From Raja brachyura (taxonomy: Eukaryota), in assembly GCA_963514005.1 (NCBI GenBank), contig OY740802.1, forward strand, positions 29,264,001-29,328,000: a stretch of DNA of 64,000 nt, in the 5' to 3' direction. The position numbers were made by a program, and so were the translations under genes. A model generated the notes under the pieces. The model did no database searches. It saw only the letters and a program-made list of their open reading frames with translations, and had not been told where the DNA came from. Positions 11,357 to 15,689 of this stretch are shown here, one piece after another. The first letter of the stretch is position 1; each line of letters begins with the position of its first letter.

Positions 11357-14300
11357 TTTGGCGAGTCTGAGACAGTAATTTAGTTTGAATTGTTTTATTT
11401 AACGAAACAATGAGCCAACGAGAGTTGATAAGACAACCAAATTTACAATGTGCCTTCCACAAGTATGGGCGCTAGACTGACGGTTACTGACAGTTACAGC
11501 AAAAAGAAACTGCCAATAGAACACCCGCGCTCATGAGACTCCTCCAGCCAATCACGAGGATTCGATTACCTAGAGCCACCACTGGGTGGCACTACAGGGT
11601 CACTCTCAGAACCCGAGGAGCGAAACCTAGCAGGGAACCGGACAGAGTGACCCAAACACGTGGTAACTGGGGCCGTGGCAAGTGTAACAACGGGGGCTGG
11701 CAAAACAGAGCCAGGAGAATGGACTGGGCCCGGAGCAACGGGGACAACCGGATCGGGTGAAACAAGCACTGGACGACCTCTATGCTGGGGCTGCGCGACC
11801 ACCACCGGACTGTCCACGTCCACATGGGCCGGCTTGAGCCGGGCAATAGAGACGGCCCTCCCACGTCCATAGTAAACGTAGCAAGGCCAGCACGCAACAC
11901 CCGGAACGGCCCCTCGTAAACTTGCTGGAGCGGAGATCAGTGGGCATCCCTGCGAACAAAAACAAACAGACAATCTTGCAGACCTGACGGCGTGCGCACC
12001 GCATGCAGACCATGCCGCGAGGTGGGTACCGGAGCCAGTCCGCCGACTCGCTCGCTAAGAGTCGCCAGAAACGCCGGGGCAGAGTTCACCTGCCCCTGTA
12101 CAACCGGGAGAAAATCGCCAGGCACGTGGAGGGCTGAGCTGTCAGAGGGAACCCAGAACCAGGTGATCCAGATGGCCGCGAGAGTTCGAGCGCAGGACGC
12201 GGCGGAGGTGTCTGAAAGTGGAATCGCCTCCGGTCACCTGGTGAATCGATCCACGATTATGAGTAAATGAGTGGCGCTGTGGGACGTTGGCAACGGGCCC
12301 ACCAAGTCGACGTGGATGTGCAGGAATCGGGCAGCCAGGACAGCAAAATCCTGCACCGGGACCCGCGTGTGCCGCTGGACCTTGGAGGTCTGACATGGGA
12401 GGGAGGTGTGGGCCTAGGCCGCCACCTGCATGCGGAACGCGTGCCAGACAAATATGGCAGCAATCAGTGCGGAGGTTGTCCGGATATACGAGTGGGCCAA
12501 ACCGTGGACGGCGTCGAAGATCCGGCGTTGCCAACGCGCAGGCACGACTGGGCGAGGTCGACCCGTGGAAACGTCACAGCGGACCATCGTGCCCAAGGGC
12601 CCACGCGGGACCGCAGCTAAACGTAGGCCAGAGACAGCAGTGCAGTCGGCCGCCATCCCAGCGTCCAGCCGTTGCGCCATGGCCAGCTCCTCGTAGTCCA
12701 CCCTGTGTCCCACGGCCAAGGTGATAGAAACCGCGGGATTGGACAAAGCGTCGGCAACAGTGTTGTTTTTGTCCGCGACATGCTGCGTGCCCGTGGTGAA
12801 CTCCGAGATAAAGGCCAAGTGCCGCTGCTGGAGTGCGGACCACGGGTCAGACACCTTGCCCAAGGCGAGCGCTTTGTGGTCGGTGTACGCGGTGAAAGGG
12901 CGGCCCCCCAAAAAGTAACGAAAACGCCGAATGGCCAAGTATAATGCGAGGAGCTCCCTGTCGAAGGCGCTGTAATCGCGCTCGGGAGCCCGCTGGTGAC
13001 GACTGAAGAAAGCAAGCGGCTGCCAGCAGCCATTGATCTGATGCTCGAGCACGCCGCACACAGCCGTGTCAGAGGCATCAACGGTGAGGGCCGTCGGGGC
13101 GGAGGCTCGCTGGTGGACCAACCTGATGGCATTGGCCAGAGGTGCTTTGGCATCCTCGAACGACGCGTCCGCTTCGGCGGACCAAACATGCTCCTTCGCC
13201 TTGCCCGCGAGCCACTGGAAAAGGGGCCGCATGACTCGGGCTGCTGCTGGTACGAAACGGTGGTAAAAGTTTACTGTGCCTACGAATTCCTGCAACCCCT
13301 TCACCGTGCGTGGCCGGGGGAACTGCTGCAGCCATTCAAATAAACCAAACGGGGTGATGATCGTGGTCTTCGGGATATCGTCCGGGGGGGGATGGGGATC
13401 TGGTTATACCCGCGGACCAGGTCTACCTTAGAAAAGAAAGCGGACCCTCGAGGTGAGCGGAAAAGTCCCGAATGTAGGGTACGGGGTAGCAGTCCGTAGC
13501 GGTGATGGCGTTCAGACGCCTATAGTCCCCACATGGCCTCCACCCCCCAGATGCTTTTGAGACAGTGTGCAGTGGGGACGCCCACGGGCTGTCTGAGCGC
13601 TGGACAATCACCAAATACTCCATGAGTTGAAACTCCTCCCGGGCAATGCGCAGTTTATCCGGTGGGAGGCGTCGTGCTCGGGCGCGTACCGGTGGGAATG
13701 TGGTGGACGACCCCGTGCTTGGGGGTCGTCACGCTGAAACGGGGAGTGAGGAGCTCTGGGAACCCGGTGACGAGGGGGGCATAGTGGCTGTCGACCTTGG
13801 CGATGGCGCTGAGCTGTGGGCTGGTAGAAGACGGGGGCCGTGGGTCCGAGGTCCGATGCTATAAATATGCGGCCGGCCCGCACATCGGCGAGAAGGGAGA
13901 AGGCCCGCAGGAATTCGGTACCCAGGAGTGGCTGGGCGACGTCCGCAACGATGAACGACCACTCGTACGGGTGGGAGTCCAAGGACAGCGAGAGGGTCCA
14001 CTTGCCGTAAGTTCGAATAGTGCTACGGTTAACGGCCATGAGCGCAAGACCTCACTTACACACACGAGTGTCTCTTCAGGTCGGTGGTAGGATGCTGATG
14101 ATGGCCCCAGTATCAACGAGGAAACACCTGCCGGTCACGGACATGAAGGCGGTTGTTAAGGCTGATCGCGATTGCCTCTACAGACGATCGGCCGAGGCGT
14201 TTCCCTGAAACGAGCAGGGTTGGCGGCAGCGGAGGTGGTAGAAGCACCATCTGCACTTGCCTTGGTCGCCCGTGCTTGGCTGCTGCTCTGTGGTGGAAGC

Positions 14301-15045
14301 AGTGGGCGGGGCTTTGCCGCAGTTTCGCCGAGGCTGCTGGTGCACGGGCGCGGAAACCCGGCTGATTGCGCCGCCATCTTGCTGCCTCGCCAACCAGAGT
14401 TCGTCGGCCCTCCCCGCGAGCCTCATGGGGTAAGGTAAAGTCGACGCCCGCGAGCATGATGCGGATGTCGTCCTGCATCCGCACAAAGAACGCCTGTTCG
14501 AAGAGCAGACACATGTGGTGGCTGTCCATCAAGGCCAGCATTTCTGCCATCAGCGCGGATGGTTTGTGGTCGCCCAAACCGTCCATGTGCAGGAATCGGG
14601 CAGCGCGATCCCAGCGGCTGAGCCCGAATGTGCGGAGCAGAAGAGCTTTGAGGCCCTCGTATTTCGGATTCTGGAGGAACAGCAGCAACTGCGAGGCTGT
14701 CAATTGCGGGAGGGCACTGACGTCATTAAAAATATTTTGTGTCGTCGACGGCGATGTTGTGTAGGTGGAACTGCGCCTCGGCCTGCGCGGACCAGACCTG
14801 CGGTTGTTCGGGCAGAAGACGGGCAGCTTGTGGCCGACGGCATTTTGTGGGGCTTGCATGTTCGGCGTCCACTGTTTGATTGGACGCGTCGGGGTCACCA
14901 CTTTGGCGAGTCGGACACGGTAAGTTGGTTTGAAATGTTTTATTTTAACAAAACAACGAGCCAACGAGAGTTGATAAGACAACCAAATTTACAATGTGGC
15001 TTCCACAAGTGTGGGCGCTGGACTGACAGTTACTGGCAATTATAG
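11357..15045 (-). mobile_element. Gypsy LTR retrotransposon (inner), frameshifted and internally deleted
   Basis: LTRs 11357-11596 and 14902-15045 (truncated); tRNA-Trp-type PBS TGGTGACCCCGACG at 14900-14887; gag remnant, protease FLVDTGA (about 14110), RT SPWASPLH/DYRRLN, RNase H TVDASD/YSAFDRELLA/TDHK, integrase HGLAH. Confidence 0.92.
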
Positions 15046-15082
15046 AACTTTATCTGAAGTTAAACCACCTGTTGTCATTCTT

Positions 15083-15229
15083 CTTCTTCTTTTCTTCTTC
15101 TTTTGTGTGGCGTGCACAGCCTAAAGTTGTAGGACAACTTGTTCTATTTGATCTTCCGTTTGTGCACGTCGAGTTGATTGCATTAGTCGAAACAGGGCGG
15201 ACCACATGAAGGTTGCAATCTTCCACCCC
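15083..15229 (-). mobile_element. 147-bp SINE-like retroposon with a 5' HDV-like ribozyme and (GAA)n tail
   Basis: 12-bp TSD GTTGTCATTCTT (15071-15082, 15230-15241); 3' tail AAGAAGAAGAAAAGAAGAAG on the minus strand; no tRNA A/B boxes. Confidence 0.8.
15176..15229 (-). ncRNA. Predicted minimal HDV-like (CPEB3-type) self-cleaving ribozyme
   Basis: GGGGUGG(P1) AA GAUUGCA(P2) ACC(P3) UUCAUGU(L3) GGU(P3') CCGCCCU(P1') G U-UUCG-A CUAA(J4/2) UGCAAUC(P2'); all helices pair, with G1-U wobble at the cleavage site. Confidence 0.75.
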
Positions 15230-15259
15230 GTTGTCATTCTTTAAACTTTATGCAGCAGG

Positions 15260-15325
15260 AACGAAAGTTCCGGCGCTTTGTGTGTGGAGGGGTTGTTTTT
15301 GTGGGCGGCCCAAGATGGCGGCGTC
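15260..15325 (+). promoter_or_regulatory. Likely ACTR5 core promoter/5'UTR with ETS-like (GTTCCGG) and YY1 (CAAGATGGCGGC) motifs at the start of a CpG island
   Basis: TTCCGG at about 15268; YY1 consensus overlaps the ATG; CpG-rich exon 1. Typical of TATA-less housekeeping promoters; the TSS is not observed. Confidence 0.55.
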
Positions 15326-15689
15326 CACGGGCCGAGATGGCGCCGAGCCGCCGCCGCCCAATGTTTACTATTTTCGGGACACGAAGGCGGTGGCGGACCC
15401 GGTGTTCGAGCTGGGGGAGGGCCGGGTGCCGCTGGTGGTGGACAACGGGTCGTTCCAGTGCCGGGCGGACTGGGCGGCGGAGCGGGCCCCGCGGCTGCTC
15501 TTCAGGAACATGGCGGCGCGGGGCCGGGGGGCGGCGCGCAGCGACACGCAGGTCGGCAACGACATCGGCAACGTCGAGCTCGTCCGCTGGCTCCTCAAGA
15601 GCCAGTTCGACAGGAACGTGGTGGTCAACCTCGACATCCAGGAGCACATCTTCGACCACATCTTCCAGCACTTCGGCATCGCCTCCCAG
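15315..15689 (+). CDS. ACTR5: ACTR5 coding exon 1
   Basis: aagATGG start context; MAASTG...[15 protein letters not shown]...[12 protein letters not shown]...GIASQ; donor CAG|gtgcgg. Confidence 0.93.

What the first reader, a model, noticed from the sequence alone, without database searches (positions are those of the whole stretch)
15083..15229. A 147-nt retroposon that begins with a complete minimal CPEB3/HDV-like ribozyme
Seen: on the minus strand the element starts GGGGUGG-AA-GAUUGCA-ACC-UUCAUGU-GGU-CCGCCCU-GUUUCGA-CUAA-UGCAAUC. P1 (7 bp, G1-U wobble), P2 (7/7 Watson-Crick) and P3 (3 bp) occur in the nested double-pseudoknot order; a C-UAA joiner holds the putative catalytic cytosine; P4 is reduced to a U-UUCG-A stub. 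The 12-bp TSD begins immediately before G1, so the element's 5' end equals the predicted cleavage site. About 70 nt of body and a (GAA)n tail follow, with no Pol III boxes. Known: L3 differs at one base from human CPEB3 ribozyme L3 (UUCACGU; the change is a CpG-type transition), and HDV-like ribozymes define 5' ends of R2 and RTE retroelements and R2 SIDEs. Inference: this is a promoterless 'ribozyme SINE' cut out of host read-through transcripts and mobilised by an RTE-like LINE. I do not know of a description in cartilaginous fish, but could not search.
Basis: partly seen in the sequence, partly recalled or inferred. Interest (0 to 1): 0.88.

Follow-up and report, generated by a model that had tools for sequence, protein, structure and literature searches.

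The report
Mini-ribozyme-headed jumping element, Vingi-like helper
A 147-base mobile element with thousands of copies in this animal genome begins exactly at a stripped-down RNA fold predicted to cut itself free of longer transcripts, and it is likely copied by Vingi-type jumping genes whose own starts closely resemble the mammalian CPEB3 ribozyme.

Summary
Real. The element is one copy of a young short retroposon family: 3,279 exact 3'-end matches, roughly 10^4 copies overall. Among 80 copies picked by 3' end only, 63 start at G1 and 73 within 4 nt. A ~12-bp target duplication abuts the start in 60 of 73. The 54-nt head fits an HDV/CPEB3-type double pseudoknot with P4 cut to a 5-nt link. Its helices covary with ribozyme heads of other retroposons in the genome, and an older subfamily changes the body but no paired base. 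Cleavage was not tested, and this copy carries a loop change predicted to favour misfolding. The helper is probably a Vingi-like LINE, not RTE: seven such families share the (GAA)n tail and a terminal motif, and several carry CPEB3-like heads. The direct parent was not found. A second family has the same P4-less head. Ribozyme-headed non-autonomous retroposons are known (NARTc, SIDER, R2 SIDE); a P4-less, high-copy vertebrate form was not found in ten literature searches. By-product: LINE heads here score up to 65.8 bits on the mammalian CPEB3 model, which suggests a retroposon origin for that ribozyme.

The parts
15230..15241 (-). Upstream copy of the 12-bp target-site duplication, ending directly before G1
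15176..15229 (-). 54-nt HDV/CPEB3-type ribozyme-like head lacking P4; G1 = 15229, predicted cleavage site between 15230 and 15229
15223..15229 (-). P1 5' strand (pairs with 15200-15194; wobbles G1-U36 and U5-G32)
   Evidence: sequence
15214..15220 (-). P2 5' strand (pairs with 15182-15176)
   Evidence: sequence
15201..15213 (-). P3 and 7-nt L3; this copy has U24 (15206) where 64 of 72 unbiased copies have C
15187..15193 (-). G37-U38 (P1.1 partner of C22) and the 5-nt link that replaces P4
15183..15186 (-). J4/2 with the predicted catalytic C44 at 15186 (CUAA here, CGAA in subfamily B)
15105..15175 (-). Body, predicted long stem with an inner hairpin; ends in the short terminal motif shared with Vingi-like LINE 3' ends
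   Evidence: (z -2.0)
15083..15104 (-). (GAA)n tail
15071..15082 (-). Downstream copy of the target-site duplication

Best explanation
This is one copy of a high-copy, non-coding retroposon whose first 54 bases form a P4-less HDV/CPEB3-type fold predicted to self-cleave at G1, and which is likely copied in trans by a Vingi-like LINE. Steps: (1) Inferred: a copy is transcribed by read-through or from a nearby start. (2) Predicted: the fold cuts just before G1 using C44, giving every source RNA the same 5' end. (3) Inferred: a single-ORF endonuclease/reverse-transcriptase protein binds the 3' stem and terminal motif, and primes on a nick with help from the GAA tail. (4) Shown as footprint: copies start at G1, carry 9-16-bp duplications and usually have a pyrimidine at -1. 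(5) Shown: after insertion the copies decay at body-like rates, so only some keep the full fold. My odds: family real 0.99, head catalytically active in source copies 0.9, helper Vingi-like 0.8, no internal promoter 0.5.
For: Copy number: 3,279 exact 24-mer matches, reversed-pattern control 0. Boundary: 63 of 80 3'-selected copies start at G1 and 73 within 4 nt; the 8-mer before the start recurs after the tail in 60 of 73, against 1-5 of 73 for 8-mers ending 10-14 nt upstream. Contig loose ends pile up at 15229 in four public runs under four organism labels (407, 368, 394, 55; at most 84 at a neighbouring position). Structure: 94.3% of cells paired, 13 of 18 pairs with two-sided changes and 0 of 500 shuffles as high on an unfitted MAFFT alignment of 14 heads; slid controls 36-51% paired. 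Subfamilies A and B differ at 0 of 36 paired sites and 1 of 54 head sites against 9 of 73 body sites (p 0.02-0.03). B's shared head variants are a J1/2 change and G10-C54 to G-U. A C24 copy hits Rfam CPEB3 (29.1 bits) and HDV-F-prausnitzii (16 bits). Helper: seven LINE families with APE and/or RT pieces and no RNase H Pfam hit end in stop + 1-11 nt + ACACG/ATACG/ACTCG, six of them with a (GAA)-type tail. Several carry CPEB3-like heads and produce bipartite derivatives with the duplication before G1. No excess G at -1 (9 of 63, background 21%), which fits an uncapped template (the cap-G signature is recalled).
Against: No cleavage assay and no raw RNA reads (only contigs). The direct parent LINE was not found; only a short terminal motif and tail link element and helper. 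The window copy has no Rfam hit; the C24 copy stays under the 35-bit cut-off and its flank adds to the score by chance; two B copies gave no hit at E<=0.05. U24 in this copy is predicted to favour a rival helix (pair 16-24 probability 0.63, P3 pair 0.13 against 0.40-0.51 with C24). Only 22 of 80 copies keep all 18 pairs and core bases. The covariation comes from other families assumed homologous, and related rows inflate the shuffle test. Four or five of the nine A/B body differences cluster at 71-74 and may be one event. The name Vingi rests on architecture and recalled motifs, not on a tree with named references.
Confidence: 0.75

Rival explanations
1. The head is both an internal Pol II promoter and a ribozyme, as in the trypanosome Pr77 hallmark, so the element is not promoterless and G1 could also be the transcription start.
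For: Ingi-clade Pr77 is reported as promoter plus ribozyme (PMC3383444 search listing; PMC3185411 passages). Bipartite LINEs are thought to be Pol II transcribed (PMC5786205 passages). Vingi is the sister clade of Ingi.
Against: No excess G at -1 that a capped template might leave. A/B conservation tracks base pairing. Neither point excludes a promoter upstream-directed or overlapping the fold.
Confidence: 0.4
2. Same ribozyme-headed element, but mobilised by an RTE-clade LINE.
For: RTE elements have microsatellite tails, make bipartite derivatives and some carry HDV-like ribozymes. Target duplications often start with A/G matching the tail, as described for RTE-related retroposons (PMC6007223 passages). 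RTE LINEs were not searched for directly.
Against: All LINE families found with the same tail, terminal motif and ribozyme heads are Vingi-like. No T-stretch about 10 nt upstream of the duplication (T 16-24 of 63 at -21 to -24, background about 18).
Confidence: 0.1
3. The head is a dead relic of a LINE 5' end; the fold no longer cuts, and the sharp boundary comes from one or a few source genes with a fixed transcription start.
For: P4 is gone; nested folding is no better than shuffles; inserted copies show no depletion of substitutions in P1-P3 (1.8-2.7% against 2.4% in the body).
Against: P4-less HDV-like ribozymes cleave in vitro (theta preprint passages). Two subfamilies keep all pairs and C44 while the body changes. 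A second family with different helix sequences has the same 5-nt link and G1 boundary. Neutral decay after insertion is expected either way.
Confidence: 0.1

Closest known systems
NARTc, RIME and SIDER (short non-autonomous Ingi/L1Tc-clade retroposons of trypanosomatids)
   Same: Short, non-coding, dispersed, with an HDV-like ribozyme at nucleotide +1; NARTc RNA self-cleaves at +1 (PMC3185411 passages; PMC4035085 abstract).
   Different: Here a vertebrate host, a 54-nt head without P4, 147 nt total, a (GAA)n tail, and no parent LINE found that shares the head.
R2 SIDE and R2/R1 hybrid SIDE (Drosophila)
   Same: Ribozyme 5' end plus a LINE-recognised 3' end; hybrids show that head and tail can come from different LINEs (PMC3414825 abstract and passages).
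   Different: SIDEs are rare and confined to 28S rDNA; this family is dispersed in thousands of copies with no target sequence beyond a pyrimidine at -1.
Bipartite non-autonomous Vingi derivatives (Vingi-1_EE, SINE2-1_ACar)
   Same: Internal-deletion derivatives of Vingi are reported (PMC5786205 passages); this genome has clear examples (L161, L162, L334).
   Different: [quoted passage not shown] The original Vingi paper was not available.
Minimal HDV-like and theta ribozymes
   Same: P4 absent, catalytic C first in J4/2, cleavage at G1 (bioRxiv 10.1101/2023.06.13.544163 passages).
   Different: Those are from metagenomes and gut phages, often after tRNAs; here the fold heads a eukaryotic retroposon.
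Mammalian CPEB3 ribozyme (RF00622)
   Same: Same spacing for positions 1-38, same L3 in most copies, G1-U wobble and G37-U38.
   Different: Different P1-P3 sequences, no P4, score under the cut-off; CPEB3 is a single conserved intronic copy.

Membership tests
HDV-like ribozymes | Nested double pseudoknot P1, P2, P3, P1.1 | tested here: met
   All 18 pairs form in the window copy; covariation across 14 heads
HDV-like ribozymes | Conserved core: G1 wobble, U20, C22, G25, catalytic C opening J4/2 followed by AA | tested here: met
   Invariant or near-invariant in alignment A1; C44 kept in 70 of 74 copies
HDV-like ribozymes | Mg2+-dependent self-cleavage 5' of G1, lost on C-to-U change | not testable with these tools
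   Only the genomic footprint (G1 boundary) is seen
Rfam RF00622 CPEB3 ribozyme | Score at or above 35 bits, P4 present | tested here: not met
   Window copy no hit; C24 copy 29.1 bits; P4 absent
Minimal (P4-less) HDV-like ribozymes | P4 replaced by a short link | tested here: met
   5-nt link in subfamilies A, B and family C
Theta ribozymes | Adjacent to a tRNA gene in a phage genome | tested here: not met
   No tRNA in the window; 2.7-Gb animal genome
Non-autonomous non-LTR retroposon | Dispersed copies, variable target duplications, simple-repeat tail, occasional 5' truncation, no ORF | tested here: met
Bipartite non-autonomous LINE (SIDE/NARTc type) | 5' and 3' parts each homologous to an identified autonomous LINE | tested here: inconclusive
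   Only the core ribozyme motif and a short terminal motif match sampled LINE families; no parent found
Classical SINE (tRNA/7SL/5S head) | Pol III RNA-derived head with A/B boxes | tested here: not met
Vingi clade (helper LINEs) | Single ORF, APE + RT, no RNase H | tested here: met
   Pfam on ORF pieces of three families; definition from PMC13708176 passages. RTE shares this architecture.
Vingi clade (helper LINEs) | Placement with Vingi/Ingi in an RT phylogeny | not testable with these tools
   No named Vingi reference protein was returned; the assignment rests on recalled RT and C-terminal Cys/His motifs
RTE-mobilised retroposons | T-stretch about 10 nt upstream of the target duplication | tested here: not met
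   on 63 copies; signature from PMC6007223 passages
RTE-mobilised retroposons | 3' end shared with an RTE LINE | not tested
   RTE LINEs of this genome were not retrieved

The most novel reading that the evidence does not exclude
Vingi-like LINEs in this vertebrate have spawned at least two families of tiny retroposons headed by active P4-less ribozymes, scattering thousands of self-cleaving sites through the genome, and the mammalian CPEB3 ribozyme is an exapted 5' end of the same kind of LINE, since heads here match it even in the freely variable P4 stem.
Probability: 0.55. Interest if true: 0.82.

Novelty: new variant of a known kind. Interest (0 to 1): 0.68.

Why it matters
It gives minimal, P4-less HDV-like ribozymes a eukaryotic job: defining the 5' end of a short retroposon that needs no Pol III head. 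Thousands of natural variants form a ready-made mutational series, and intact copies inside genes could cut host transcripts. The neighbouring result matters more widely. A 2021 study states that the CPEB3 ribozyme had not been found outside mammals (PMC8233481 passages), yet 32 of 58 scored matches in this genome pass the Rfam CPEB3 cut-off, and those examined are retroposon heads. That makes the origin of a ribozyme linked to memory in mice directly testable. Vingi elements are also being developed as gene-insertion tools, and a 147-nt natural passenger shows how small the cis-acting RNA may be.

Tried and rejected
Rfam scans of the window copy found no ribozyme family. Nested-only folding gave no signal above shuffles. 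The hunt for a parent LINE failed: 84 3' ends with a changed upstream 5-mer; 20 were read and 8 more, and all were element variants, truncations or chimeras with another repeat. Also no parent among 30 + 20 + 30 LINE loci or beside 8 partial heads in 385 loci. Only 150 of 2,534 and 150 of 4,851 protein candidates were scored, so the search is incomplete. The 30 loci of the endonuclease-family search were not classified. One search used wrong coordinates and hit an unrelated repeat; its loci served only as background. A 20-codon frame in the body of subfamily A is closed in subfamily B by my reading and was rejected as chance. PDB and Atlas searches gave only generic RT names. Public runs were contigs only, so expression and RNA ends could not be read; no empty-site allele was listed. 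Earlier scan notes: none. Three key papers were not held: Ruminski 2011, Kojima 2011, Webb and Luptak 2011. Dfam and Repbase could not be checked; no supplements were read.

Full report
Observation. The first 54 nt carry P1, P2, P3, a 7-nt L3, G37-U38, a 5-nt link and C44-U-A-A. Positions 1-38 align without gaps to the Rfam CPEB3 consensus. A generic HDV-type descriptor, written after seeing the element, finds only this site in the window, 1 match in 300 shuffled windows and 0 in 20,000 element shuffles. Rfam does not recognise the window copy. A sister copy with C24 scores 29.1 bits on RF00622, under the 35-bit cut-off and helped by a chance flank match.

It is a large, young family. The 3' 24-mer has 3,279 exact matches in the 2.7-Gb genome, with 0 for the reversed control. 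Six copies fell by chance into 537 kb of loci fetched for other reasons, some overlapping, which scales to about 30,000 (Poisson range 11,000-66,000), so only the order of magnitude is claimed. I fetched 80 of the first 100 listed places, leaving out 11 tandem duplicates, 1 already held and the last 8; two duplicate pairs remain among the 80. Of these, 63 start at G1, 73 within 4 nt, and 7 are 5'-truncated. The 8-mer just before the start recurs after the tail in 60 of 73, against 1-5 of 73 for 8-mers ending 10-14 nt upstream. Duplications are 9-16 bp, mode 11-12 (47 scored). In four public runs under four organism labels, contig loose ends peak at 15229 (407, 368, 394, 55), with at most 84 at a neighbouring position. 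Mean divergence from the per-column commonest letter is 2.4% outside CpG.

Evidence for the fold. An older subfamily B (29 copies after removing one duplicate) differs from A at one head position (J4/2 CUAA to CGAA) and at 0 of 36 paired positions, but at 9 of 73 body positions (p 0.028 and 0.023). Several of those body changes cluster and may be one event. B's shared head variants fall in J1/2 and at 54, where G-C becomes G-U. On an unfitted MAFFT alignment of 14 heads from this and six other retroposon families of the genome, 94.3% of cells pair, 13 of 18 pairs show two-sided changes, no shuffle of 500 reaches this, and slid controls give 36-51%. Related rows inflate that test. Against: copies decay after insertion at body-like rates (P1 2.7%, P2 1.8%, P3 2.1%, J4/2 5.1%, body 2.4%), only 22 of 80 keep the whole fold, and nested folding energy is unremarkable. 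The window copy keeps all pairs, but its U24, a CpG-type change found in 7 of 72 copies, is predicted to favour a rival helix.

The helper. Searching the genome with RF00622 gave 58 scored matches, 32 over the cut-off, best 65.8 bits, and none over the cut-off in 14 control genomes. I read 26 of the 32. They are heads of a few repeat families. One continues into endonuclease and RT coding sequence, and it led to seven LINE families. Three were Pfam-scanned and showed APE and/or RT with no RNase H hit; all end in a C-terminal Cys/His motif. A review describes Vingi as compact, single-ORF, APE-type and lacking RNase H (PMC13708176 passages). RTE shares that outline; my preference for Vingi rests on recalled RT and C-terminal motifs. 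All seven end in a stop, 1-11 nt and ACACG, ATACG or ACTCG, six of them followed by a (GAA)-type tail. The element ends the same way: family F5 matches its last 17 nt at 16 positions, and the one difference is the base where 60 of 73 copies agree with F5. F1 makes obvious bipartite derivatives with the duplication before G1 (L161, L162). Mean pairwise identity of A (93.5%) and B (93.0%) overlaps F3 (94.0), F4 (95.1) and F7 (92.9). No sampled LINE shares the element's head or body, so the direct parent is unknown.

A second family. Family C (about 176 nt; 2,993 first-look candidates) has different P1-P3 sequences but the same 5-nt link in place of P4. It has a duplication directly before its first G in 15 of 20 copies (control 0) and a 3' end matching LINE family F3. 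The design has therefore succeeded at least twice in this genome.

Insertion footprint. The base before G1 is a pyrimidine in 51 of 63 A copies (p 1e-6), 20 of 25 B and 15 of 20 C. In 12 of 60 it does not match the downstream duplicate, mostly as T or C. This would fit a purine added by reverse transcriptase running off a fixed RNA end (inference). There is no excess of G at -1 and no RTE-type T-stretch upstream.

Comparison with what is known. Short ribozyme-headed non-autonomous retroposons are established: NARTc cleaves at +1 (PMC3185411 passages), SIDERs and relatives carry the fold (PMC4035085 abstract), and R2 SIDEs self-cleave (PMC3414825 abstract and passages). Kojima 2018 names RTE, Ingi, Vingi and R2 as the clades making bipartite derivatives and does not list Vingi among clades with shown ribozymes (PMC5786205 passages). 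P4-less ribozymes are active and were described from metagenomes and phages (theta preprint passages). So the element works like NARTc or a SIDE; strict membership as a bipartite LINE is inconclusive without a parent. Ten full-text searches listed no paper on a P4-less ribozyme retroposon in a vertebrate or on a Vingi origin of the CPEB3 ribozyme. The library lacks most subscription papers, three key papers were not held, no supplements were read, and Dfam and Repbase could not be checked.

The CPEB3 link. Head L164 matches the Rfam CPEB3 consensus at 54 of 67 positions by my count, including both strands of P4, and L164 and L174 are joined in inverted orientation to RT-coding sequence 34-48% identical to F3 proteins. 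A 2021 study states that the CPEB3 ribozyme had not been found outside mammals (PMC8233481 passages), and a Vingi trace, X12_LINE, is listed for the human genome (PMC5753468 passages). Common descent is likely; orthology to the CPEB3 locus was not tested and is not claimed.

Verdict. A real, young, high-copy retroposon with a probably active minimal HDV-type ribozyme: a new variant of a known kind. The helper is likely Vingi-like rather than RTE. Interest 0.68, raised by the second family and by the lead on the origin of the CPEB3 ribozyme.

Noticed in passing
L161-L175, L324-L335 (G000): 32 of 58 scored matches to the mammalian CPEB3 ribozyme model pass the Rfam cut-off (best 65.8 bits). The 26 read are heads of repeat families, several tied to Vingi-like LINE sequence; L164 matches the consensus at 54 of 67 positions including P4.
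   Followed up: partly
L327:525-701, L366-L385: Second short retroposon family (about 176 nt) with a P4-less ribozyme head, target duplication before the first G in 15 of 20 copies and a 3' end matching LINE family F3.
   Followed up: partly
L167, L168, L169, L170, L173, L175, L164, L174: LINE copies in which the ribozyme head plus 20-50 nt is joined in inverted orientation, at or near G1, to LINE coding or 3' sequence; looks like twin-priming inversion reaching the RNA 5' end.
   Followed up: partly
L161:~1200-1564, L162, L334: Bipartite F1 derivatives of about 350-390 nt, and one of about 90 nt that is little more than ribozyme plus terminal motif and tail.
   Followed up: no
window 15315-15689 +: First exon of an actin-related gene (Pfam Actin; ACTR5-like by recall). 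The element lies 86 bp upstream of the ATG on the opposite strand, so a divergent promoter transcript would read it in sense.
   Followed up: partly
window 15204-15600: Contigs under two other organism labels cover the element's 5' junction with 1-2 differences and keep the rare U24 variant, a weak hint that this insertion is shared; only 26 letters lie inside the element.
   Followed up: no
window ~11600-15050 -: Decayed LTR-retrotransposon-like element (RT/RNase H Pfam hits) ending just downstream of the element's tail.
   Followed up: no
G000:C1:14795963-14951875: Twelve matches of the element's 3' end spaced 7-27 kb apart on one strand, suggesting a tandem segmental array.
   Followed up: no
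L069, L086/L087, L130: Copies inserted into or head-to-head with older subfamily B copies.
   Followed up: no
L248, L236 3' UTR: The 3' UTR of LINE family F3 contains a 9-11-nt stretch identical to the element's P2 5' strand region; unexplained, possibly chance.
   Followed up: no
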